A stretch of DNA of 64,000 nt from assembly GCA_041859965.1 (NCBI GenBank), contig JBFLGD010000007.1, positions 11,885 to 75,884 of the forward strand, read 5' to 3'. The translations under genes were made by a program, and so were the position numbers. This stretch comes from Bulleidia sp. Its GTDB lineage: Bacteria > Bacillota_I > Bacilli_A > Erysipelotrichales > Erysipelotrichaceae. The notes under the pieces were generated by a model. That model did not search any database and was not told the origin of the DNA. It worked only from the letters and a program-made list of their open reading frames with translations. Positions 8,385 through 22,305 of the stretch are shown here, piece by piece (position 1 is the first letter of the stretch; each line of letters begins with the position of its first letter).

Positions 8385-11300
8385 ATGAAAAAGATCCTGA
8401 GCAGAATGAAGGACAACTGCAGAAAGGGATTCACGTTAGCAGAACTGATGATTGTTGTATCAATCACCATCATACTGGCGTCAATCGGAACCATTGCAAT
8501 TGTTCAATATCAGAAAAACTTAAAACTTGCGGAAATGAACAATATGGCCCGTGAGATTTTCGTTGCGGCTCAGAATCACTTAACAGACTCCAAGACAACA
8601 GGCAGCTGGCAGGAGTATGCTTCTACACTGAACAGCGGAGAAACTGCTTCAACAGACAGTTCTGTTTCAATAGACAATGCAGACAGCGCCTATCAGGGTG
8701 CAGTCACAGGAACAAAGTATTATTATGCTATCTACAGTTCAGATAAATCGGATGTACTGACTGATTCCAATTATGCACTGTCATATATGCTTCCATTTGG
8801 ATCGCTTGAGGATACAGTCAGAACATCCGGAAGCTATGTGATCATCTTCAATCCTGACAATGAAACAATTCATACTGTGTATTATACAGAGAAGGAGAAC
8901 TTTACCTCTGATGAAGTATCCAAACTGATGTCCATGGATAAAGGCGCATGGACTGTTATGACTGAGAAGGAGATTCCTGTCGGTGTTTATGGCGATGCGG
9001 ATAAGGGAAAATTCACAGCAACTGCATTGAAAACACCTGTGATTACTGTTCATAATGAAGATACCTTGAATATAGATATTCAGGATCTGAACACAGAGAA
9101 TACAACATTGGAGTTTACAGTCAGCGGTTTAACTAGCAAAGCAACAGCTAAGTTTGAAGTGACGCAGAACAATGGAACCGTGACTGTACTGAGCAAAGAC
9201 AATAACAGCACATGGACATACAGCAGTTCCAGCAAAACATTCAATGTTGTTCTGGATGATATCAGAACACAGAATCAGAACTTTATTACAAAGTTCTCTA
9301 AATTCTATCCGGGAGAAAACATAAGTGTAACAGCAAAGTTTAAATCGAGAACCACTTCGTCTGTATCTGTCAGTGCAAGTTCGATTACCAATTCACTGTA
9401 TGCTTCTGTTACGGATGAGAATGATGCTGGCACCAAGGTGAGTGCAGTTATCAATAATCCAAGACATCTGCAGAACCTAGACAGTTCTGTATCTTATGTA
9501 AATGCTTCCTATAAGAACAATGCAAATGGACTCACGGTAGACAATGCAGTGATTGCTTCTGATCTTGACTGGGCTGACTTTATCAGTGAAAACTGTGTAT
9601 ATAGAGCAACTGGCAAGGCAGTTGATGATGTTTCAAGTACGCATAGTTCAAAGTTCAGTTCTATCGTTAATGATTCATTGACTTCATTGACAAGTGATAC
9701 AGAAGGGACCTCACGTACTTTATCGAACTTTAACTTTGGATCCAATGGAGATGGAGCCGGTCTTTTAGGTGAGATTAATTTAACTTCAGCAGGTTTTAAG
9801 ATCAGCGACATCAATCTTGAGAACTGTAGATCCTACGGAACTGACAGTGTTGGAATGCTGGTTGGAATTGTTAACAATAACAATACGAGTGCTTATGTAC
9901 AGGTAAGCAATGTACATGCATATATGAAGGCAACAAGCACGCTGTCGATAGCGGACGCCTACAGTGAAGCAAGTGACTCTGATAACAGACGTATTGTGGA
10001 TGGAGGAAATAAATCCACAATCGGCGGACTGATAGGTACAGTTGATGGCAATCTAAGCATGAGGAACTCCTCGGCTTCTGTGAGAGTCGGTGATGGCAAG
10101 CAGATATATGCTGGTGGAATGATAGGAAGAATCACTTCAGGCACTGTATCAATCAATGAGTCGTATGTAGGCGGCTACCTTGGTAAGAATGGTACAAAGA
10201 CATCCTATGATATGGATAAGCCCAATGTTATGGCTTCAAACGGAAATACTGCAGCCGGTGGATTTATTGCCCAGGCAGATAATGCGGCTGTCACAATTAA
10301 GGAATGCTATACAACAGCATCTGTTTATGGACATACAGCCGGTGGATTTATTGGTGTCGATAATACGGGTGTCAGATATGCAGATGTTTATACGACTTCA
10401 TTTGTTCAGGGCAATACAGTTGGAAGATTTGTTGGTACAGGTACAGGCACACTTATTAGCTACAATACATATGCCGGTGTTTTAGAGACATCGCAACTTT
10501 ATGATATGAGCGGCAAGACAGCAGCTGAATCAGCACAGCCTTCATATGTAACTGAATTCCTTTCTTCAGAACTTAAGAACCAGTCAGGAAGCAGTACACA
10601 GACAGCATCTGTATATTCGTCTTCAGCATTGAAGAGTGCGGTATATCCATATCCTTCCAGTGCATCCAAGGGTACGCACTATGGAGACTGGGTAGAGGCA
10701 GCTGATCCTATTATCCCTACAGATGGCATAGGATTCCTTTATTACGAGAAGGTGGATGGAAGCTATTACTATAATGGAGTGCAGTGTTCTAAGAATGGAA
10801 AAGTAACGGCTGTAAGCAATCCAACATTGCTTAATAATGGCGGAACATACAGCCACTATACTGTTGAGGATGATGGGTACATTCTTGTCATTCCAAACGG
10901 ATATCTGGCAAGCAACTGGAATACAAGATTTTCTTTCAATTCCTATCATGGATACGATGATACACAGTGGGGAGGGATCTCCCTGGATTTACTGTATAGA
11001 AGTGGACTTGTCTCTTATACGTCAAGCACAATAACTTCAGCACTGGGAATTGGAGATGGGTATACTGCTGTTACGATTAATAAGAACAGCAGAACACTGG
11101 ATTATATGAATAATGACAGTCAGGGCGGACTGTCCATATATTTCAGAGGAAATGATGATATTCAGCGAAATTCTATAAAGGGAACGTTCAATTATAACTA
11201 TTGTTTTGGCAACAGTATTGAGGGAAGTACTAGAGATGCTGTTAACACCCCATATGAAATTAGAAGTGCTTCTCAGCTGAAACTACTCTTTAACGATAAC

Positions 11301-13574
11301 AGTGCTGATACATTCCTGAATTCGAATCATAAATATACTGTGACACAGACAATGGATATTACCGCAGAATCCAATATGTCGACTCTTGATGAACTCTTTG
11401 GAACATATCAGGGCATTATGATGGATGATGGCAATTACTCAAAATTATCCGATTTTGATTCTACTTTTGTAGGGTATGTAGGTCCGACCGGAATCATTCA
11501 GAATATCGTATTTGACGGCACTTACATAGATTCAAAATATGATCTTTACAGATACAATGGAGGATATGGAACATTCGTCTCTTCCTTGGAAGGAAAACTT
11601 CAGAATGTGACAGTCAATAACACTTCTGTGAAGGCAGGCAGCTGGAATTACAGCAGCTACAACTTCGGTGTTATAGGCTCAATGAGCGGAGGAAGCACTT
11701 CTGCAGTCAGCAACGTTAAAATTAGCAATGTTGATTTCACCGGTACATCTTTCTATGCAAACAGCCTTGGAGTTATCGCATCTGCAGGGGCTGGAAGTAT
11801 AACTGATACTTCTATTACAGGCGTCAGTATTAAATGTCCTACTTTGGCAGCAAAGAATACCGGTGTGATTGCGGCTGCTACCGGTGGATTTGTATCATGT
11901 AAGAATCTGACAATATCAGATGTTAATTGTACAGACAGCAAAGTCACATCAGATAATACCTTTGGTGCTATAGGAAGTGTGTCTGGCGGAAGTCTTGATA
12001 CAGTTTCAATCAGCAAGGTGAATATTAATGATTCTACAATCACTTCAGATTATGTAGGGGCAGTGGCGAATCTTGAATATGGCAGCGGAACGGTCTCAGG
12101 GCTGTCTGTCAGCAATATTAATGTCACAGACAGTACGATCAATTCAACGGTCACCGGTATAGGAATCGGCGGTATTGAAAATCAGACAATTTATAATACG
12201 TCTGTTTCAGATATAAAGATTTCAAAGGTGACAAATAAATCGTCATCCTCTGCTGGAATTATTGGAGAGATCGATAATGACGGGTATCTGAACAATACAG
12301 TAATTAGAAATATCTCAATACTTGATTCAAGTATAACTGCACAGTACACAGGTGCTATTGGAAATGTTGCTTCATCAGGGGCAGGAGTATACAACACATT
12401 AATTTCAGGTGTAACAATCGGTACCGATCCAGCGGATGATGAAGATGAAGTCAATGCGAAACTTGATGCGACTTATGCAGGCATAGCAGTTGGTTTCAAC
12501 AAAGGCGTTATTTCCGGTATCACGGTGGGAACACATGAAGCCGGTGTTACAGTCAACAAAGTGAATATTGATGCGGATAACTTTGGAATTATTGCATGCA
12601 ATTCCAATAATAATGGTTACATAGTTGACTATATTGATTCTGATGGCAACGGTGTTTCTGATGGGCAGTCAACATTTGAGCATATATCTCTGACAAATCT
12701 TACATTGAAGAATACTTCTGGCTATAATGTGCTGAATGCAGGAATCATCGCGAATAACTCCGGTATAATCACAGACTTTGCAATGAAGGATATTGTGATG
12801 ACGGGTTGGAATCTCCCGACGGATATTACGTCAATCAATGCTGGCGCAATAGGCAATAATTCTGGAACTATTGATAGAACAAGCGAATTTGAAACAAATC
12901 CTGTACGAAATCTGACAATGTCTGGTTTCACTTCCGGGACTGACAAGACTGCATATACAGATTATGCATTTGCAGGATTGAATTCTGGCTACAGTACATT
13001 GCTCAGATACATTACGATCAATGATTACTATACCGAAGGCTATGGAGCTGTCTATAACAATGCTGATGGTTCAACGATCAGCAATATCACAATCGATATG
13101 ACAGATCATACAGATGACATTCCATATGTGATCGATCCCGCTGATCCAAATGCTACAGAGAACAGAGTGATTCCGCATATTGGCAGAGATGGATTTGCAT
13201 ATAAGAATAGTTCCAGAGTATCAACGTGTGTGATCACGAATGCTGTTAAAGATACAGCAAATCCTGAGAACAGCAGCATCCTTGGCAATGTCTTTATTGA
13301 AGCAGCGAACAATACTGGAACCATCGACGACTGTGAAGTCACAGACTCTAATGGAACTGTATTGTGGCCTGTGACATCCAGAATGAGTGTTGCACCAGCT
13401 GCCGTCACACAGCAGCCTTCAACGCCGTCTGCATCCGCACAGAGCAATGCTTCGGCATCTGCATCATCATCCGCTGACAGCACAGCATCTGCTTCCGCTT
13501 CACCTTCACCTTCTCCGTCGGCTTCTTCAGCAGCTGGAAGCAGTGCATCACCTTCTGCTTCTGCAGGACAGTGA
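8385..13574 (+). CDS. Giant pilin/adhesin (~1,730 aa): class III signal, Ig-like segment, two GLUG-like beta-helix modules, S/A/P tail
   Basis: RKG|FTLAELMIVV at 8421-8450; repeated GGxIG/GVIG/GAIG units; start moved from 8334 to ATG 8385 (8406 also possible). Confidence 0.85.
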   Translation: MKKILSRMKDNCRKGFTLAELMIVVSITIILASIGTIAIVQYQKNLKLAEMNNMAREIFVAAQNHLTDSKTTGSWQEYASTLNSGETASTDSSVSIDNADSAYQGAVTGTKYYYAIYSSDKSDVLTDSNYALSYMLPFGSLEDTVRTSGSYVIIFNPDNETIHTVYYTEKENFTSDEVSKLMSMDKGAWTVMTEKEIPVGVYGDADKGKFTATALKTPVITVHNEDTLNIDIQDLNTENTTLEFTVSGLTSKATAKFEVTQNNGTVTVLSKDNNSTWTYSSSSKTFNVVLDDIRTQNQNFITKFSKFYPGENISVTAKFKSRTTSSVSVSASSITNSLYASVTDENDAGTKVSAVINNPRHLQNLDSSVSYVNASYKNNANGLTVDNAVIASDLDWADFISENCVYRATGKAVDDVSSTHSSKFSSIVNDSLTSLTSDTEGTSRTLSNFNFGSNGDGAGLLGEINLTSAGFKISDINLENCRSYGTDSVGMLVGIVNNNNTSAYVQVSNVHAYMKATSTLSIADAYSEASDSDNRRIVDGGNKSTIGGLIGTVDGNLSMRNSSASVRVGDGKQIYAGGMIGRITSGTVSINESYVGGYLGKNGTKTSYDMDKPNVMASNGNTAAGGFIAQADNAAVTIKECYTTASVYGHTAGGFIGVDNTGVRYADVYTTSFVQGNTVGRFVGTGTGTLISYNTYAGVLETSQLYDMSGKTAAESAQPSYVTEFLSSELKNQSGSSTQTASVYSSSALKSAVYPYPSSASKGTHYGDWVEAADPIIPTDGIGFLYYEKVDGSYYYNGVQCSKNGKVTAVSNPTLLNNGGTYSHYTVEDDGYILVIPNGYLASNWNTRFSFNSYHGYDDTQWGGISLDLLYRSGLVSYTSSTITSALGIGDGYTAVTINKNSRTLDYMNNDSQGGLSIYFRGNDDIQRNSIKGTFNYNYCFGNSIEGSTRDAVNTPYEIRSASQLKLLFNDNSADTFLNSNHKYTVTQTMDITAESNMSTLDELFGTYQGIMMDDGNYSKLSDFDSTFVGYVGPTGIIQNIVFDGTYIDSKYDLYRYNGGYGTFVSSLEGKLQNVTVNNTSVKAGSWNYSSYNFGVIGSMSGGSTSAVSNVKISNVDFTGTSFYANSLGVIASAGAGSITDTSITGVSIKCPTLAAKNTGVIAAATGGFVSCKNLTISDVNCTDSKVTSDNTFGAIGSVSGGSLDTVSISKVNINDSTITSDYVGAVANLEYGSGTVSGLSVSNINVTDSTINSTVTGIGIGGIENQTIYNTSVSDIKISKVTNKSSSSAGIIGEIDNDGYLNNTVIRNISILDSSITAQYTGAIGNVASSGAGVYNTLISGVTIGTDPADDEDEVNAKLDATYAGIAVGFNKGVISGITVGTHEAGVTVNKVNIDADNFGIIACNSNNNGYIVDYIDSDGNGVSDGQSTFEHISLTNLTLKNTSGYNVLNAGIIANNSGIITDFAMKDIVMTGWNLPTDITSINAGAIGNNSGTIDRTSEFETNPVRNLTMSGFTSGTDKTAYTDYAFAGLNSGYSTLLRYITINDYYTEGYGAVYNNADGSTISNITIDMTDHTDDIPYVIDPADPNATENRVIPHIGRDGFAYKNSSRVSTCVITNAVKDTANPENSSILGNVFIEAANNTGTIDDCEVTDSNGTVLWPVTSRMSVAPAAVTQQPSTPSASAQSNASASASSSADSTASASASPSPSPSASSAAGSSASPSASAGQ
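13384..13571 (+). repeat. Low-complexity Ser/Ala/Pro coding tail
   Basis: SASAQSNASASASSSADSTASASASPSPSPSASSAAG. Confidence 0.8.
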
Positions 13575-16208: not shown

Positions 16209-16252
16209 AAGCGGGGAAACGTCTGTTGAATACAGGGGATTCCCGCTTTTTT
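16209..16252 (+). terminator. Terminator after gdhA
   Basis: AAGCGGGGAA...TTCCCGCTTTTTT. Confidence 0.75.
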
Positions 16253-16272
16253 CGTGCATCAGAAGGAACTGT

Positions 16273-16524: not shown

Positions 16525-17451
16525 ATGAGATCAAATCAATACAGCTGGAAGAAAACAGTACTGTTTCTAATGTGCTTGGTAATGCTGCTGTTTGCAGCCA
16601 GCGCGCCATTTTATAAAGATGTTTCAGAGGGCTATCAGTATCAGAATGTGGGTCATAAGAAGCAAATGCTTGATTCTGTTAAGAAGGACAGTCTCGATGT
16701 TCTCCTGATGGGAGATTCACAGGTATGGGCAGGACTGTCTCCATTGCAGCTGTATGGAGAATATGGCATTGCTTCCTATAACTGTGCAACTTCAGGACAG
16801 TGTACCTATGACACAATGATTCTTCTGAAAGAAGCGCTGAAGAGACAGAATCCGAAAATAGTTGTTATAGGAACAAGCTCCTTCTATTCGGGACCGCAGC
16901 CACTGAAATTCCTGCTGACACATATACTGCCTGTCTTTCATTACCATGGTTTCAGCAACCGGAATACAAAGGCATACGGAGATGAAAAATATCTTGGCGC
17001 ACATCTGGTCAATACAGTGGATCCATATACGGGAAGCGGTAAATATATGGAGAAAAATAAAAAGTGTGATGAGATGTCACCTATTCAGAAAACATATCTG
17101 GATGATATGAAGGATATATGCAAGGCAAGAGGTATCAAGCTGGTCTTTGTTACAATGCCTACCGGCGTTAACTGGACAGATGGCAAACATGATGCGGTAC
17201 AGAAATATGCGGATGAATATAACATTCCATATTACGACTATAACGAAACAAAGGCTTTTACACGTCTCGGCTTCAACTGGTCTACTGATACAAGAGATGC
17301 TGGAAAACATGTCAACATTTCGGGATCCATTAAAATAACAAGAGACTTTGGGAGAATACTGAAAGCACATTATACGCTGCAGGATCATCGCGGTGAGAGT
17401 GAATATCAGAGCTGGGAAAATGAATATAAGAACTGCGGTTTCTATTCCTGA
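16525..17451 (+). CDS. Membrane-anchored SGNH-fold protein (DltD/AlgJ analogue)
   Basis: N-terminal TM, LLMGDSQ nucleophile block, DAGKH D..H block. Confidence 0.8.
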   Translation: MRSNQYSWKKTVLFLMCLVMLLFAASAPFYKDVSEGYQYQNVGHKKQMLDSVKKDSLDVLLMGDSQVWAGLSPLQLYGEYGIASYNCATSGQCTYDTMILLKEALKRQNPKIVVIGTSSFYSGPQPLKFLLTHILPVFHYHGFSNRNTKAYGDEKYLGAHLVNTVDPYTGSGKYMEKNKKCDEMSPIQKTYLDDMKDICKARGIKLVFVTMPTGVNWTDGKHDAVQKYADEYNIPYYDYNETKAFTRLGFNWSTDTRDAGKHVNISGSIKITRDFGRILKAHYTLQDHRGESEYQSWENEYKNCGFYS

Positions 17452-17477: not shown

Positions 17478-19025
17478 ATGGATGGAATTCTTTCTTATAA
17501 CAAATTCACGTATTTTCTGGTGTTTCTGCCACTCGTGATCATACTGTATCAATTGATGCCTAAGAAATTCAGGTGGGCTGTTTTACTTCTGGCAAGCTAT
17601 GCATTCTTCTTCTCCTTCTCAAGGAAGCTGGTACTGTACAACGTTGCTGCATCTATTCTGACATATGCTTTTGGCAGAATCCTTGGCTCCATGAAGAAGG
17701 CACCGGAGGGAATGGACAGAAAGGCATTTAAGAAAAAGAAACACAGAATACTGGTACTTGCCGTCCTGATAGATCTAGGTGCATTGGTCCTTCTGAAATA
17801 TTCAAACTTCTTCGGGAGAACATTTGCTTCGCTGACCGGCAGTACATTTTCTCCAGTTGAATTCCTGGTGCCGCTGGGTATCAGCTACTATACGCTGCAG
17901 TGCATTTCCTATCTCTGCGATGTAGCAGGGAAGAAAATAGAACCTACGCATCACTTCTTTCAGCTGGCGCTGTATCTTAGCTTTTTTCCGACCATAATGG
18001 AAGGTCCTATCTGCCGTTTTGATCAGATTGGAGAGGATCTTTATGCCGGCAATTCAGTTACTTCCGAACATCTGGCATTAGGATATGAAAGAATCCTTTT
18101 TGGTCTGTTTAAGAAAATCATTATAGCGGACAGACTTTCACCGGTAGTGGATAACCTGTTTGCTTATCATACTGGTGAAGGTGCGCTCTGTCTGCTGGCC
18201 GCAATACTGTTTACGCTGCAGATGTATATGGATTTCTCGGGTATGATCGATATTGGAATAGGGTCCGCCCGTATCTTTGGAATTACTGTGCCGGAGAACT
18301 TCCGTCAGCCATTTTTTGCTAAGAATGCAGGCGATTTCTGGAGAAGATGGCATATTACGCTGGGGACATTCTTCCGTGACTATATCTTCTATCCGGTATC
18401 TTTATCAAAGCCAATCCAGCACTTAACAAAGTGGACTGGAAAGCATGTTGGCAAGAAGGCGTCACGCTATATCGGACCATTAATTGCACTGCTCTGTGTA
18501 TGGCTTGCGAATGGACTGTGGCATGGACCGCACTGGAATTATATTGTCTATGGACTGTATTACTTTTCACTGACTGCCATAGAAATGTTTACAGAGAAAC
18601 CATTTGAAGCATGGTGCCATAAGCATAATCTGAACATAGAAGGTGCAGGCATACGTACCTTCAGATTTATTAAACTGGTGCTGATTGTCATCACCGGTGA
18701 GATGTTCTTCCGTGCAGTTTCACTTCATGCAGGATGGACAATGCTGGTAAGTATCTTCACGAATTTTGATGTGAAGCAGATCTTTACAGTCCTTCCGCAG
18801 CTGGACATGAGCAGGGAAGATTATCTGATTGTAGCAGTGGCATTTGCGGCAGTGATTGCTGTCAGTGTACTGAAGGAAAAGAAGTTCCCAATCAGAGAAA
18901 AGTTCAACAGTATGCCGACTATGGCAAGGTGGGCTATACTGTATGTCATTATATTTGCGATTGTTCTGTTTGGCGCATATGGACCTGGGTATGACGCTGT
19001 TGCAGCAATGTATGCCGGGTTCTAA
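17478..19025 (+). CDS. MBOAT family acyltransferase (DltB/AlgI-like)
   Basis: LGISYYT, FFPTIMEGP, YMDFSG, ENFRQPF, FWRRWHITL, GLWHG catalytic His. Confidence 0.92.
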   Translation: MDGILSYNKFTYFLVFLPLVIILYQLMPKKFRWAVLLLASYAFFFSFSRKLVLYNVAASILTYAFGRILGSMKKAPEGMDRKAFKKKKHRILVLAVLIDLGALVLLKYSNFFGRTFASLTGSTFSPVEFLVPLGISYYTLQCISYLCDVAGKKIEPTHHFFQLALYLSFFPTIMEGPICRFDQIGEDLYAGNSVTSEHLALGYERILFGLFKKIIIADRLSPVVDNLFAYHTGEGALCLLAAILFTLQMYMDFSGMIDIGIGSARIFGITVPENFRQPFFAKNAGDFWRRWHITLGTFFRDYIFYPVSLSKPIQHLTKWTGKHVGKKASRYIGPLIALLCVWLANGLWHGPHWNYIVYGLYYFSLTAIEMFTEKPFEAWCHKHNLNIEGAGIRTFRFIKLVLIVITGEMFFRAVSLHAGWTMLVSIFTNFDVKQIFTVLPQLDMSREDYLIVAVAFAAVIAVSVLKEKKFPIREKFNSMPTMARWAILYVIIFAIVLFGAYGPGYDAVAAMYAGF

Positions 19026-19040
19026 AAAGGAAGTATAGAC

Positions 19041-20573
19041 ATGAAAACTAAGAATGTACTGGAGTGGCTTGAAGAAAGCGCAAAGAGAGTTCCTGATAAG
19101 GTGTCATTTGCAGATCCTGATGGAGAGATTTCTTTTGCACAGCTTGAAAAGGATGCACAGAGAATAGGTTCTTTTCTGTGTGGAAAGATAAACAGAAATG
19201 AACCGGTGTCCTTCTACCTTGAGAAAAGTACACTGGCAATGTCTGGAATGCTTGGTGCTGTTTATGCAGGAGGATTCTATTCGCTGCTGGATACGCGGCT
19301 GCCTGAGAGCAGACTGCAGAGTATTCTAGGCGTTCTGCGGCCATGCATCATTCTGACCGACAGCAAAAATAGAGAACAGGCTGAACATCTGTTTGATAAG
19401 GAAAGCTATGAGATCTATTCTCTTGAGGACATACTGGAGATTAATAAGTATGATCCGCAGGAACTGAAGATTCGAAGAGAGGAAGCACTGGATTGCGATC
19501 CTCTCTATGTCAATTTCACTTCGGGTTCTACAGGTATTCCAAAGGGTGTAGCAGTCAGTCATAGAAGTGTTATTGATTTCATTGAGATCTTTGACAGAAC
19601 ATTCGGCATAAAGGAAACAGATATACTTGGCAATCAGGCACCGTTTGATTTTGATGTTTCAGTAAAGGATATCTTTTCCGGCTTATATACAGGTGCTTCT
19701 GTACAGATTATTCCAAGAGAGTATTTTTCCAATCCAACTCTGCTGATGGACTATCTATGCGACAGAAATGCAACGGTACTGATATGGGCGGTCAGCGCTA
19801 TGTGCTTTGTGTCAATTATGAATGGTTTTGGATACAAAGTGCCTGAAAAAGTAAGAATGGTCCTGTTCAGTGGAGAAGTAATGCCTGTGAAGCAGCTGAA
19901 TAAATGGAGAAAGGCACTGCCGAATGCTATATATGTGAATCTTTATGGACCGACCGAGATTACCTGCAACTGCACATACTATGTACTGGATAATAGAGAG
20001 TATGCTGCAGATGAGATTATTCCAATCGGCAGACCTTTTGACAATGAGAAGGTGTTTCTTCTGAATGAAGAGAATGAACAGATACTTGAACCTGGAAAGC
20101 AGGGAGAAATATGTGTTTCCGGAACCTGCCTTGCCTTAGGGTATTACCGTGATAAAGAGAAAACAGATACGGTATTTACACAGAACCCATTGAATACATG
20201 TCTGCCTGAAAGGATATACCATACAGGTGATCTGGGACAGTACATGGATAATGGAAATCTGGTATACAGCGGCCGCAGGGATTTTCAGGTAAAGTATCTT
20301 GGTCATCGCATAGAACTCAATGATATTGAAGCACAGGTGCAAAGTGTTAATGGTATTGAAAGAGCCTGCTGTCTGTTCAATCAGGAGAAGAAAAGACTTC
20401 TTCTATTCTATACAGGCGGCCGTGAAAGCAGAGAACTGGCAGAAGAACTCAGAAAGATACTGCCGCCGTATATGCTGCCGAATAAACTGACAAAGCTGGA
20501 TGAAATGCCAATGACGAAGAATGGAAAGATAGACCGGAATATACTGAAACAGCAGGAAGGCATTCAGAAATGA
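19041..20573 (+). CDS. Stand-alone amino-acid adenylation enzyme (DltA-like, non-DltA pocket)
   Basis: FTSGSTGIPKG (A3), FDFDVSV (A4), YGPTE (A5), YHTGDLG (A7), GRRDFQVK (A8), NGKIDR (A10). Confidence 0.9.
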   Translation: MKTKNVLEWLEESAKRVPDKVSFADPDGEISFAQLEKDAQRIGSFLCGKINRNEPVSFYLEKSTLAMSGMLGAVYAGGFYSLLDTRLPESRLQSILGVLRPCIILTDSKNREQAEHLFDKESYEIYSLEDILEINKYDPQELKIRREEALDCDPLYVNFTSGSTGIPKGVAVSHRSVIDFIEIFDRTFGIKETDILGNQAPFDFDVSVKDIFSGLYTGASVQIIPREYFSNPTLLMDYLCDRNATVLIWAVSAMCFVSIMNGFGYKVPEKVRMVLFSGEVMPVKQLNKWRKALPNAIYVNLYGPTEITCNCTYYVLDNREYAADEIIPIGRPFDNEKVFLLNEENEQILEPGKQGEICVSGTCLALGYYRDKEKTDTVFTQNPLNTCLPERIYHTGDLGQYMDNGNLVYSGRRDFQVKYLGHRIELNDIEAQVQSVNGIERACCLFNQEKKRLLLFYTGGRESRELAEELRKILPPYMLPNKLTKLDEMPMTKNGKIDRNILKQQEGIQK

Positions 20574-21754
20574 TAGAGAATGCGGAACTGCAGCAGATTG
20601 CTGAGAAGTATGGAACACCTTGCTATGTATTTGATACTGAAGCACTGCAGAAATGGGTCGGGGAGATCAGAAAACAGGGTGAGGAAAAATATCATCTCTG
20701 TTTCTCTGTCAAAGCAAATCCATTTCTGATACCAACTATGGAAAAACTAGTGGATTCTCTGGAGGTGTGCTCACCAGGAGAATTCTCAATCTGCAGATAT
20801 CTTCATGTAGATCCTGATATGATTCTTTATTCTGGCGTCAATAAGACAGAAGAGGACATCCATGAAGCAATGCAGTATGGAACCAGTCATTTTACGGCAG
20901 AGTCACTGAAACATTTCAGAGAGATCAATGCGGAGGCAGTAAAAGAAAATAAATCGGTATCTGTTCTGCTCCGTATCAATACTGGATCTCAGTTTGGTAT
21001 GTCAATGAATGATCTTCTGGAGATTGTTGATCATAGAAATGAATATCCACATATTCATTTGAGCGGTATTCATTACTTTGCAGGTACAGAAAGAAGAAAG
21101 GCTGTAAAGCAGCTGAAGGAACTTGAAAAGCTGAAGGATCTGTATCATGAACTGGAACATGAGCATGCATGGAGACCGGAGAAACTTGAATATGGGCCGG
21201 GACTCAGTGTGCCTATGTTCACAAAGGATGATTTCTCTGACCCATTAATGCCATTAAGGAATATTCATAAAGAACTTTGTGACTTCGCAGAGAATGCAGA
21301 TGTCACCATAGAGATGGGAAGATTCTTCGCGTCATTCTGCGGTATGTACCTGACCGAAGTTATGGACACAAAAGAAAATGGAGGTGTAAATTACTGTATT
21401 ATTGACGGCGGTATTCATCATGTGAACTACTATGGTTCTATGATGGGTATGAATGCGCCGATTATAGAACATCTTTCAGCAGCAGATAATCATGAGAAGA
21501 AGGAATGGTGTATATGCGGATCTTTATGTTCCTTTAATGATGTACTGGTAAGAAGTTTCCCGGCGGAGGGACTGAAGGAAAAGGATATCCTTGTATTTAA
21601 GAATATAGGTGCCTATTCTGTAACCGAGGGAATGTATCTGTTCCTCAGCAGGAAGATGCCGAGAATACTGTTAAGAGATAAAAATGGCAGAATACAGGAA
21701 GCCAGAGCATATAAGGAATCCTGGAAACTGAATACAATGAAAGAAGGAGAATAA
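20570..21754 (+). CDS. Fold-type III PLP enzyme, diaminopimelate/ornithine decarboxylase family (BtrK-like candidate)
   Basis: YGTPCYVFD, SVKAN PLP lysine, IHYFAG, EMGR, CGSLC, GAYS. Confidence 0.85.
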   Translation: MIENAELQQIAEKYGTPCYVFDTEALQKWVGEIRKQGEEKYHLCFSVKANPFLIPTMEKLVDSLEVCSPGEFSICRYLHVDPDMILYSGVNKTEEDIHEAMQYGTSHFTAESLKHFREINAEAVKENKSVSVLLRINTGSQFGMSMNDLLEIVDHRNEYPHIHLSGIHYFAGTERRKAVKQLKELEKLKDLYHELEHEHAWRPEKLEYGPGLSVPMFTKDDFSDPLMPLRNIHKELCDFAENADVTIEMGRFFASFCGMYLTEVMDTKENGGVNYCIIDGGIHHVNYYGSMMGMNAPIIEHLSAADNHEKKEWCICGSLCSFNDVLVRSFPAEGLKEKDILVFKNIGAYSVTEGMYLFLSRKMPRILLRDKNGRIQEARAYKESWKLNTMKEGE

Positions 21755-21758
21755 AGAT

Positions 21759-21989
21759 ATGGATGAATTGATCGCATTATTAGAGGATATAAAGGAGGAT
21801 GTGGACTTCAGAAACTGCAGAACATTGATTGATGATCATATACTGGACTCATTTGATATTCTGCAGATTGTTTCTACACTGAATGATAACTATGACATTT
21901 CCATTCCTGCTTCAGACATTGTTCCATCTAACTTCAATTCAGCAGAAGCACTGCTGGCAATGGTAAAGAAACTGCAGGAAGAAGGCTGA
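21759..21989 (+). CDS. Acyl/aminoacyl carrier protein (DltC-like)
   Basis: 76 aa, acidic, LDSFD phosphopantetheine site, NFNS motif. Confidence 0.9.
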   Translation: MDELIALLEDIKEDVDFRNCRTLIDDHILDSFDILQIVSTLNDNYDISIPASDIVPSNFNSAEALLAMVKKLQEEG

Positions 21990-21990
21990 T

Positions 21991-22305
21991 CTACTTCTGA
22001 TGCACGGATACCATGGCAATGGCAATGCCTGCGTCATGGGAAATGCTGACTTCAATCTCCGGATGGCCCTTGATAAAGGGCTGTCCGTTTTCTTTGTTCA
22101 GAACAGTATAGGAAAGGTATTCAGGATCCTGCGTGGCCTTGAAAACAGCTTCCTTTACAGCAAAGCGGGAGGCAAGGTATGTTTTCTTTTCGCGGATCGT
22201 ATGCAGAGCTTCATAGACATGCTCTTCTTCATCCGTGAGGAAGAAGCATGCATTCTTACGATCTGGCTGCATACGGTCGATTTCAACAATATCAATTCCA
22301 ATCAT
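21991..22305 (-). CDS. acpS: Holo-ACP synthase (4'-phosphopantetheinyl transferase)
   Basis: GIDIVEIDR, LASRFAVKEAVFKA, SISHD. Confidence 0.9.
   Translation of the reverse strand: MIGIDIVEIDRMQPDRKNACFFLTDEEEHVYEALHTIREKKTYLASRFAVKEAVFKATQDPEYLSYTVLNKENGQPFIKGHPEIEVSISHDAGIAIAMVSVHQK

What the first reader, a model, noticed from the sequence alone, without database searches (positions are those of the whole stretch)
19644..19970. Adenylation pocket is not DltA-like and has Lys at GrsA position 239
Seen, hand-aligned: FDFDVSVKD (DltA typically FSFDLSVMD), LFSGE (DltA FCGE, whose Cys contributes to D-Ala preference), YGPTEITCN. Approximate code D-V-K-I-L-S-L-C-N-K. Known from memory: the SrfAA Glu module code DAKDLGVVDK also has Lys239. 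Inference: acidic substrate (Glu/Asp), consistent with the decarboxylase model. The glutamate-producing gdhA lies immediately upstream, though separated by a terminator, so that adjacency may be chance.
Basis: partly seen in the sequence, partly recalled or inferred. Interest (0 to 1): 0.6.

Follow-up and report, generated by a model that had tools for sequence, protein, structure and literature searches.

The report
DltA-like ligase with lysine pocket
A cell-wall decoration enzyme related to the D-alanine ligase DltA has a rebuilt substrate pocket with an invariant lysine, conserved in hundreds of gut anaerobes, so it probably loads an acidic amino acid rather than D-alanine, but the substrate is still unproven.

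Summary
Bona fide DltAs read D-L-M-T/V-L-C-T-V-A-K.

Lys209 replaces the Met of FDLSVMD, and Ser277 replaces the Cys that excludes L-Ala. Lys209 is invariant in 120 database homologues and 80 genomic loci. The family occurs in at least 593 species genomes.

- An acidic substrate fits. The overlapping PLP decarboxylase is most like BtrK, which decarboxylates carrier-bound glutamate.
- That chemistry needs activation of the side-chain carboxyl. The SrfA-A analogy implies activation of the alpha-carboxyl instead.
- The VinN hallmark of a shortened loop is absent.
- Nine loci have the same or nearly the same pocket but no decarboxylase; eight of their genomes lack an orthologue.

A diaminopimelate substrate is refuted here, because the genome has no dapA, dapF or lysA. 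Preformed beta-alanine or GABA is unlikely, because panD and GAD were not found. The gdhA adjacency is chance (1 of 80 loci, with a terminator between).

This scan has noted the same operon in at least 16 other genomes. I found no paper describing it.

The parts
19041..20573 (+). Stand-alone adenylation enzyme (510 aa, P0001). It belongs to the DltA clade but is not a DltA.
   Evidence: TIGR01733 320.5 bits (cut-off 317.4). DltA models score 294 and 285 bits against cut-offs 476 and 560. AF2 model pLDDT 88.2. Foldseek finds 1amu, and 3e7w at TM 0.80.
19644..19970 (+). Pocket-lining segment F202-N310, the reported finding
19647..19649 (+). Asp203 (GrsA 233). Invariant in the family; Ser in DltA. 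Role unknown.
19653..19658 (+). Asp205 and Val206 (GrsA 235 and 236; DltA D197 and L198)
   Evidence: review
19665..19667 (+). Lys209 (GrsA 239; the Met of FDLSVMD in DltA). Invariant.
19782..19784 (+). Ile248 (GrsA 278; I, V or T in the family)
   Evidence: The mapping to 278 rests on ungapped spacing.
19863..19871 (+). Leu275-Phe276-Ser277 (GrsA 299-301). Ser277 replaces DltA Cys269.
   Evidence: review
19941..19943 (+). Leu301 (GrsA 322)
19965..19970 (+). Cys309 and Asn310 (GrsA 330 and 331; DltA V301 and A302). Both invariant.
20526..20528 (+). Lys496 (GrsA K517, catalytic lysine of motif A10)
20570..21754 (+). Fold-III PLP decarboxylase (394 aa, P0122). Its ATG overlaps the stop of the A gene (ATGA).
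   Evidence: Pfam Orn_Arg_deC_N and Orn_DAP_Arg_deC. Best solved relative is BtrK, 2j66/7ru7, E 6e-30. It keeps SVKAN Lys48, EMGR and CGSLC, shares DGGIHH with BtrK, and lacks the RPxxY of DAP decarboxylase.
21759..21989 (+). Carrier protein (76 aa, P0002), DltC-like, with a DS motif
   Evidence: PP-binding. DltC and AsbD models give weak hits. Follows the decarboxylase in 70 of 80 loci.
17478..19025 (+). MBOAT membrane acyltransferase, DltB-like
   Evidence: PF03062. TIGR04091 scores 164 bits against a cut-off of 375. Present in 67 of 80 loci.
16525..17451 (+). 308-aa protein in the DltD position. It has an N-terminal hydrophobic segment and a GDS motif (LLMGDSQVWAG). No Pfam or NCBIfam hit.
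   Evidence: A related family of about 359 aa lies beside the MBOAT gene in 46 loci.
21991..22305 (-). AcpS-type phosphopantetheinyl transferase, convergent with the carrier gene
   Evidence: PF01648, E 2.2e-10. Conserved next to the operon in only 1 of 80 loci.
16209..16254 (+). Intrinsic terminator after gdhA. It marks the upstream boundary of the operon.
   Evidence: Hairpin -19.7 kcal/mol, z -3.78, followed by U6. The consensus scanner missed it because the loop is long.

Best explanation
Shown: the gene encodes a stand-alone amino-acid adenylation enzyme of the DltA clade. It has the same length and frame through the pocket as solved DltAs, and it keeps the amino-binding Asp (D205) and the catalytic Lys (K496). 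The residues that hold D-alanine in DltA are replaced: L198 by V, the Met by K, C269 by S, V301 by C, and A302 by N. These replacements are fixed across hundreds of species. The genome has no canonical DltA. Inferred: the enzyme activates an acidic amino acid, L-Asp or L-Glu with a slight lean to Asp, through its side-chain carboxyl. Asp205 would hold the amino group and Lys209 would pair with the free alpha-carboxylate. The enzyme would then thioesterify the amino acid to the 76-aa carrier protein. The BtrK-like PLP decarboxylase would remove the alpha-carboxylate on the carrier, giving beta-alanyl- or GABA-carrier protein. The MBOAT and the GDS-motif protein would pass the acyl group to an envelope polymer, as DltB and DltD do for D-alanine. 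In the minority of species without the decarboxylase, the undecarboxylated amino acid would be transferred.
For: Pocket mapping to the DltA crystal contacts. Invariance of K209, D203, S277, C309 and N310 in 120 homologues and 80 loci. Lys at 239 is rare in NRPS A domains, 26 of 861, and about a third of those codes are of the DAKD.G.V(D/N)K type, which I know as the Glu code. The order A, decarboxylase, carrier is kept in 70 of 80 loci with an ATGA overlap here. The decarboxylase's best solved relative is BtrK, which acts on carrier-bound gamma-glutamyl. VinN/VinO/VinL and FlvN show the same logic with an A enzyme and Asp-type substrates. Ser at 301 and a beta-branched residue at 236 match VinN S299 and the A236V change of beta-Phe-specific TycA. 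An independent ligase-decarboxylase pair (TIGR03098/TIGR03099) also has a basic pocket residue, an Arg in a loop that is 3 residues shorter. Only five gene families recur around the A gene, so the substrate must be a common metabolite. No canonical DltA was found in the own genome or in five named carriers.
Against: There is no biochemical data and no ligand-bound model. The beta13-beta14 loop is not shortened, and positions 330/331 are Cys/Asn rather than Lys/Arg, so the VinN mechanism is not reproduced. Nine loci lack the decarboxylase; eight keep the pocket code within the family's normal variation (L029 differs at 236 and 301), and eight of the nine genomes lack an orthologue. Under this model those species would add a net-neutral group, which is an odd replacement for D-alanylation. 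The upper pocket (V236, L299, S301, L322) matches the Ser/Cys-type codes as I remember them at more positions than the Glu code. Lys209 could be neutralised by the invariant Asp203 and never touch the substrate.
Confidence: 0.5

Rival explanations
1. The enzyme loads a small neutral amino acid (Gly, L-Ala, L-Ser or still D-Ala). Lys209 only fills the bottom of the pocket, as Met does in DltA, and is perhaps paired with Asp203. The decarboxylase would then serve another step.
For: The framework is DltA-like with no indel. Nearly the same pocket occurs in four-gene operons (MBOAT, GDS-motif protein, A, carrier) without any decarboxylase. No canonical DltA was found in six carrier genomes, which suggests functional replacement. 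Positions 236, 299, 301 and 322 (V, L, S, L) resemble Ser/Cys-type codes as I remember them.
Against: It gives no role to a decarboxylase that is translationally coupled to A and lies between A and the carrier gene in 70 of 80 loci. Carrier-bound Ala, Gly or Ser has no carboxyl to lose. A buried, uncompensated or merely structural Lys would not be expected to stay invariant together with C309 and N310.
Confidence: 0.2
2. The decarboxylase acts first, on free Asp or Glu. The A enzyme then loads the product, beta-alanine or GABA.
For: It would give a cationic decoration directly. Asp205 could hold a beta- or gamma-amino group as in VinN-type enzymes.
Against: The decarboxylase is closest to the carrier-dependent BtrK. 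Beta-alanine and GABA have no second carboxylate for Lys209. None of the nine genomes whose operon lacks the decarboxylase shows PanD or glutamate decarboxylase, so they would have no internal source of the substrate while keeping the same or nearly the same pocket.
Confidence: 0.1
3. The enzyme activates the alpha-carboxyl of L- or D-Glu (or Asp), exactly as SrfA-A module 1 does, with Lys209 on the side-chain carboxylate. The surface receives glutamyl or aspartyl esters, and the decarboxylase has an unknown, non-canonical role.
For: Lys at 239 is the discriminating residue of Glu-type codes. The Glu-to-Gln switch by point mutation (Eppelmann 2002) is cited in PMC7960918; that the residue is 239 is from my own knowledge. 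The loop has the length typical of alpha-amino-acid enzymes. Operons without the decarboxylase exist.
Against: A fold-III PLP decarboxylase needs a free alpha-amino-acid moiety, which an alpha-thioester lacks. The other Glu-code residues (D278, G301, D331) are absent. The product would not be cationic.
Confidence: 0.1
4. The substrate is meso-diaminopimelate, loaded through one end and decarboxylated at the other to give lysyl-carrier protein.
For: The decarboxylase belongs to the DAP-decarboxylase clade. A pocket holding both a Lys and an extra Asp could bind a distal zwitterion. The decoration would be cationic with or without the decarboxylase.
Against: The own genome (96.85% complete) has no dapF, no dapA and no lysA, so it has no DAP. 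The decarboxylase lacks the RPxxY motif that DAP decarboxylases carry at that place.
Confidence: 0.02

Closest known systems
DltA, D-alanine--D-alanyl carrier protein ligase (TIGR01734; PDB 3dhv, 3e7w, 7vhv)
   Same: Stand-alone A enzyme of about 505 aa. It shares the motifs NQAPF.FD.SV.D, F.GE..P and N.YGPTE.T with no indel through the pocket. It is encoded with a DltC-like carrier and a DltB-like MBOAT. Foldseek TM is 0.80 to 3e7w.
   Different: It scores half the family cut-off. Every residue that contacts the D-Ala methyl group is changed: L to V, M to K, C to S. Positions 322, 330 and 331 also change, and there is an extra invariant Asp at 233. Its operon carries a PLP decarboxylase.
VinN/VinO/VinL and FlvN/FlvO/FlvL (macrolactam starter-unit pathways of actinomycetes)
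   Same: An A enzyme loads an Asp-type amino acid through the side-chain carboxyl onto a stand-alone carrier, and a PLP decarboxylase then removes the free carboxyl on the carrier. Ser stands at GrsA position 301, and position 236 is larger than Ala.
   Different: VinN holds the carboxylate with K330 and R331 on a beta13-beta14 loop that is one residue shorter. Here the loop has full length, 330/331 are Cys/Asn, and the only basic pocket residue is at 239. The product goes to an MBOAT, not to a polyketide synthase.
BtrJ/BtrK/BtrI of butirosin biosynthesis
   Same: The decarboxylase here is most similar to BtrK among solved structures (E 6e-30) and shares its DGG(I/M)HH motif. BtrK turns gamma-glutamyl-S-carrier into GABA-S-carrier.
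   Different: BtrI is loaded by an ATP-grasp ligase, not by an adenylation enzyme. Identity to BtrK is low, and the substrate here is unknown.
Glu-activating NRPS A domains (Stachelhaus code DAKDLGVVDK, SrfA-A module 1)
   Same: Lys at position 239. Codes of that type were seen among NRPS domains fetched here.
   Different: Asp278, Gly301 and Asp331 are not shared. Those domains activate the alpha-carboxyl, which does not fit on-carrier decarboxylation.
TIGR03098/TIGR03099, the ligase and decarboxylase pair named 'exosortase A system-associated' by NCBIfam (function unknown)
   Same: An ANL-family ligase with the amino-binding Asp is encoded next to a fold-III decarboxylase. Both proteins of the window hit these models (180 and 156 bits).
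   Different: Both scores are far below the cut-offs. True members (L119-L134) read FSFDYGLNQ and YGLTEA-FRSTY: Asn or Ser at 239 and an Arg in a loop that is three residues shorter.

Membership tests
Amino-acid adenylation domain (TIGR01733, ANL superfamily) | Score over the curated cut-off | tested here: met
   320.5 bits against 317.4. PF00501 E 7e-60.
Amino-acid adenylation domain (TIGR01733, ANL superfamily) | Asp235 for the amino group and Lys517 of motif A10 | tested here: met
   D205 and K496 are invariant.
DltA (TIGR01734 / NF003417) | Score over the curated cut-off | tested here: not met
   284.7 against 559.85, and 294.2 against 476. True DltAs score 565-711.
DltA (TIGR01734 / NF003417) | D-Ala pocket: L198, the Met of FDLSVMD, C269 and V301 (B. 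cereus numbering) | tested here: not met
   The residues here are V206, K209, S277 and C309 (contacts listed in PMC11253843).
DltA (TIGR01734 / NF003417) | Encoded with a DltC-type carrier and a DltB-type MBOAT | tested here: met
DltA (TIGR01734 / NF003417) | Activates D-alanine | not testable with these tools
   Needs an enzyme assay.
[quoted passage not shown] | beta13-beta14 loop one residue shorter than in alpha-amino-acid enzymes | tested here: not met
   Constant offset of 8 to B. cereus DltA from residue 197 to 301, and no gap against seven DltAs.
[quoted passage not shown] | Basic residues at 330/331 holding the substrate carboxylate | tested here: not met
   C309 and N310.
[quoted passage not shown] | Larger residues at 236 and 301 (F231 and S299 in VinN) | tested here: inconclusive
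   S277 matches S299. V206 is larger than Ala but smaller than the Leu of DltA and the Phe of VinN.
[quoted passage not shown] | Works with a stand-alone carrier and a PLP decarboxylase | tested here: met
   Gene order A, decarboxylase, carrier in 70 of 80 loci. This is gene context only.
Glu-specific NRPS A domains (code DAKDLGVVDK) | Lys239 together with Asp278, Gly301 and Asp331 | tested here: not met
   Only Lys239 is shared. Positions 278, 301 and 331 are I, S and N. The reference code is from memory; similar codes were seen.
BtrK-type carrier-dependent decarboxylase (the neighbouring gene) | Fold-III decarboxylase with the PLP lysine and catalytic Cys, closest to BtrK | tested here: met
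BtrK-type carrier-dependent decarboxylase (the neighbouring gene) | Acts on a carrier-bound aminoacyl thioester | not testable with these tools
   Needs mass spectrometry of the loaded carrier.
TIGR03098 / TIGR03099 pair | Scores over the curated cut-offs | tested here: not met
   180.4 against 592.35, and 156.5 against 478.45.

The most novel reading that the evidence does not exclude
A DltA-derived ligase has evolved a second, VinN-independent way to activate the side-chain carboxyl of Asp or Glu, using Lys at position 239 in a loop of normal length. It feeds an undescribed beta-alanyl or GABA esterification of the cell envelope. This would replace D-alanylation in hundreds of gut, rumen and oral Firmicutes and Coriobacteriia.
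Probability: 0.35. Interest if true: 0.75.

Novelty: new variant of a known kind. Interest (0 to 1): 0.55.

Why it matters
D-alanylation of teichoic acids sets surface charge, resistance to cationic peptides and immune recognition in Firmicutes. The genomes examined here have no canonical DltA and carry this ligase instead. The family occurs in at least 593 species genomes, many of them dominant gut and rumen lineages. Knowing what the ligase loads would show which group decorates their envelopes. The fixed pocket (Lys209, Ser277, Cys309, Asn310, Asp203) gives a short list of substrates and point mutants to test. If side-chain activation is confirmed, it would also add a second structural solution to the one known from VinN.

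Tried and rejected
1. Diaminopimelate as substrate. It was attractive because it would explain Lys209 plus Asp203 and the operons without a decarboxylase. I rejected it because the genome has no dapA, dapF or lysA.
2. A complementarity test for preformed beta-alanine or GABA. The genomes whose operon lacks the decarboxylase do not carry PanD or GAD.
3. A replacement enzyme in the loci without a decarboxylase. The genes after the carrier gene are unrelated: aldose epimerase, a transglutaminase-like protein, DNA polymerase III delta', and DegV.
4. The search of protein representatives with the A enzyme. The list was swamped by giant NRPSs whose domain scores add up, so it gave no intermediate relatives. 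I reused those proteins only to count residues at position 239.
5. A printed alignment to 1AMU. The five best PDB entries were all LgrA constructs. GrsA numbering therefore rests on motif equivalence, the review's list of code positions and my memory of the GrsA sequence.
6. The VinN structure paper (PMC4223343) is not held, so I used a review instead.
7. A sample of 400 Actinomycetota genomes did not bring in VinO-type macrolactam clusters. It brought in the TIGR03098/TIGR03099 pair instead.
8. The AF2 model and Foldseek confirm the fold. They give no coordinates, so the Lys209-Asp203 distance and the pocket geometry could not be measured.
9. The consensus terminator scan missed the gdhA terminator. 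Folding the region found it.
10. Literature searches for this operon or for beta-alanyl or GABA esters on teichoic acids found nothing relevant.
Full report
**What is at the coordinates.** The interval 19644-19970 covers codons F202 to N310 of a 510-aa ORF on the + strand (19041-20573).

The protein passes the amino-acid adenylation model TIGR01733 (320.5 bits, cut-off 317.4). It reaches only half the cut-offs of the two DltA models (294/476 and 285/560).

It lies in a five-gene + strand operon:
- a 308-aa protein with a GDS motif and no family hit (16525-17451);
- a DltB-like MBOAT (17478-19025);
- the A enzyme;
- a fold-III PLP decarboxylase whose ATG overlaps the A gene's stop (20570-21754);
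- a 76-aa carrier protein (21759-21989).

A convergent AcpS gene follows at 21991-22305.

**Does the lysine sit in the pocket?** phmmer of residues 196-216 finds only DltA structures. It aligns residues 198-215 to positions 190-207 of B. cereus DltA. The offset of 8 also holds further on:

| This enzyme | B. cereus DltA |
|---|---|
| D205 | D197 |
| V206 | L198 |
| K209 | the Met of FDLSVMD |
| S277 | C269 |
| G303 | G295 |
| C309 | V301 |

A review of A-domain structures names D197, G295 and V301 as contacts of the amino group. It names L198, the Met and C269 as contacts of the D-Ala methyl group, with C269 excluding L-Ala (PMC11253843).

The same review lists the GrsA code positions 235, 236, 239, 278, 299, 301, 322, 330, 331 and 517. 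It equates VinN F231, S299, K330 and R331 with GrsA 236, 301, 330 and 331. Alignment to LgrA places FDFDVSVKD on FSFDGSALD and YIFDISVAE.

Only the assignment of I248 to position 278 rests on ungapped spacing and on my memory of the GrsA sequence.

The AF2 model is confident (pLDDT 88.2). It puts D205 and K209 one turn apart on helix 204-217. Foldseek returns ordinary A domains, including 1amu, and 3e7w at TM 0.80.

**Comparison with real DltAs.** I took seven enzymes over the TIGR01734 cut-off from a sample of 301 genomes of the phylum of a Lachnospiraceae carrier (L099-L105, 565-711 bits). They read NQAPFSFDLSVMD, FLFCGE and NTYGPTEATVAV.

Their code is D-L-M-(T/V)-L-C-T-V-A-K, with Ser at position 233. 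The window's enzyme shares the frame without any indel. It differs at positions 233, 236, 239, 301, 322, 330 and 331. So it is a DltA-clade enzyme with a rebuilt pocket.

**Conservation and spread.**
- K209 is invariant in 120 database homologues down to 57% identity. So are D203, D205, V206, W249-S258, F276-E279 and N300-C311 with trivial exceptions.
- A scan of one genome per species found at least 593 genomes that encode a relative. They include Lachnospiraceae, Erysipelotrichaceae, Oscillospiraceae, Coriobacteriia and one Treponema bin.
- The scan patterns did not include residue 209, yet all 80 loci kept have Lys there.
- Among 861 A domains of 150 NRPS proteins, Lys occupies position 239 in 26.

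**Neighbours.** Among the 80 loci, the decarboxylase follows the A gene in 70, the carrier gene is present in 70 and the MBOAT in 67.

gdhA occurs once, 10 kb away. In the window, a hairpin of -19.7 kcal/mol followed by U6 separates gdhA from the operon. The gdhA adjacency is chance.

Clustering all ORFs within 6 kb of the A gene gives only five recurrent families. There is no racemase and no substrate-synthesis gene, so the substrate is a common metabolite.

**The decarboxylase.** Its best solved relative is BtrK, the L-glutamyl-[BtrI carrier protein] decarboxylase (E 6e-30). That is ahead of every DAP decarboxylase.
- It keeps the PLP lysine (SVKAN), the EMGR motif and the catalytic Cys (CGSLC).
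- It shares DGG(I/M)HH with BtrK.
- It lacks the RPxxY that the DAP decarboxylase shows at that place.

BtrK turns gamma-glutamyl-S-carrier into GABA-S-carrier (PMC7857480). VinN, VinO and VinL do the same with 3-methylaspartate, and FlvN with aspartate, using an A enzyme for loading (PMC11284099).

**What this means for the substrate.** A fold-III decarboxylase needs a free alpha-amino acid moiety. If it works on the carrier, the A enzyme must activate the side-chain carboxyl, and Lys209 would pair with the alpha-carboxylate.

The VinN marks of side-chain activation are only partly present. Ser at 301 matches. Val at 236 recalls the A236V change of beta-Phe-specific TycA. But the beta13-beta14 loop is not shortened, and 330/331 are Cys/Asn.

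An independent ligase-decarboxylase pair turned up in a sample of Actinomycetota. It is the TIGR03098/TIGR03099 pair, with L127 over both cut-offs. Its ligase shows a loop three residues shorter, with an Arg (YGLTEA-FRSTY).

So both ligase families that travel with such a decarboxylase carry a basic pocket residue, and DltA does not. I count this as modest comparative support for an acidic substrate.

**Operons without the decarboxylase.** Nine long loci have the order MBOAT, GDS-motif protein, A, carrier, followed by unrelated genes. Eight keep the pocket code within the family's normal variation; one, L029, differs at 236 and 301.

Whole-genome searches found an orthologue of the decarboxylase in only one of those nine genomes. 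The others gave nothing or LysA-like hits at 22-26% identity. Some of these genomes are metagenome bins and may be incomplete.

The pocket therefore does not depend on the decarboxylase. This weakens any argument that runs from the decarboxylase to the substrate, and it keeps a neutral small substrate in play.

**Alternatives tested.**
- *Diaminopimelate.* It would explain a pocket with both Lys209 and Asp203, and a cationic product with or without the decarboxylase. But the own genome (2.01 Mb, 96.85% complete) has no dapF, no dapA and no lysA.
- *Preformed beta-alanine or GABA.* This is unlikely. None of the nine genomes whose operon lacks the decarboxylase has PanD or glutamate decarboxylase, and neither does the own genome.
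- *Canonical DltA elsewhere in the genome.* None was found in the own genome or in five named carriers: Lachnospiraceae bacterium 3-1, Owariibacterium komagatae, Faecalicatena contorta, Anaerobium acetethylicum and Tractidigestivibacter montrealensis. This suggests that the system stands in for Dlt.

The inference of an acidic substrate is the best available reading, at about even odds. I would correct it in one respect: the lysine would hold the alpha-carboxylate of a side-chain-activated Asp or Glu. The main rival is a small neutral amino acid with a structural lysine.

I found no paper describing the operon. Earlier notes of this scan report the same operon in at least 16 other genomes, with the same beta-alanyl or GABA guess. 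Those notes are not independent evidence.

Noticed in passing
whole genome G000 (window = C77:11885-75884): No dapA, dapF, lysA, panD or glutamate decarboxylase was found in a genome that is 96.85% complete. The organism is probably a lysine auxotroph without DAP. Its kin in the genome sample include many small Mycoplasma-like genomes, so it is probably Erysipelotrichales-like.
   Followed up: partly
L119-L134 (Actinomycetota genomes, e.g. L127:74-2625): The TIGR03098/TIGR03099 ligase-decarboxylase pair, named 'exosortase A-associated', was among the decarboxylase hits found in 34 of 401 sampled Actinomycetota genomes. Its ligase keeps the amino-binding Asp and has a beta13-beta14 loop three residues shorter with an invariant Arg (YGLTEA-FRSTY). 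This resembles VinN and suggests an acidic or beta-amino-acid substrate.
   Followed up: partly
L087 (G068:C1:411129-412601): A different DltA-like stand-alone enzyme (299 bits) occurs in a genome of the same order. It reads FYFSMSVTD, so it lacks the amino-binding Asp235 and may activate a non-amino acid.
   Followed up: no
L082 (G001:C11:297-1460): One Coriobacteriaceae bin whose operon lacks the decarboxylase carries a 38%-identical copy of it at the edge of another contig. This is either a second, split system or an assembly break.
   Followed up: no
window 16209-16254: The gdhA terminator is a 9-bp GC-rich stem with an inner 5-bp helix, followed by U6. The consensus scanner missed it because the loop is long.
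   Followed up: yes
window 21991-22305 (-): A 104-aa AcpS-type phosphopantetheinyl transferase is convergent with the carrier gene and 1 nt from its stop. It is conserved beside the operon in only 1 of 80 related loci, so the linkage is local.
   Followed up: partly
L029 (uncultured Coriobacteriaceae, A gene 10001-11521): This is the only locus with a changed pocket: Gly at 236 and Thr at 301 (code DGKTMTLCNK). It also lacks the decarboxylase.
   Followed up: no
NRPS proteins P0123-P0272: Among 861 A domains, the codes with Lys at 239 fall into a few types: DAKD.G.V(D/N)K, DLKN(F/V)G(S/T)D(I/V)K and DAK(Q/H).ALILK. The last two I could not assign to a substrate.
   Followed up: no
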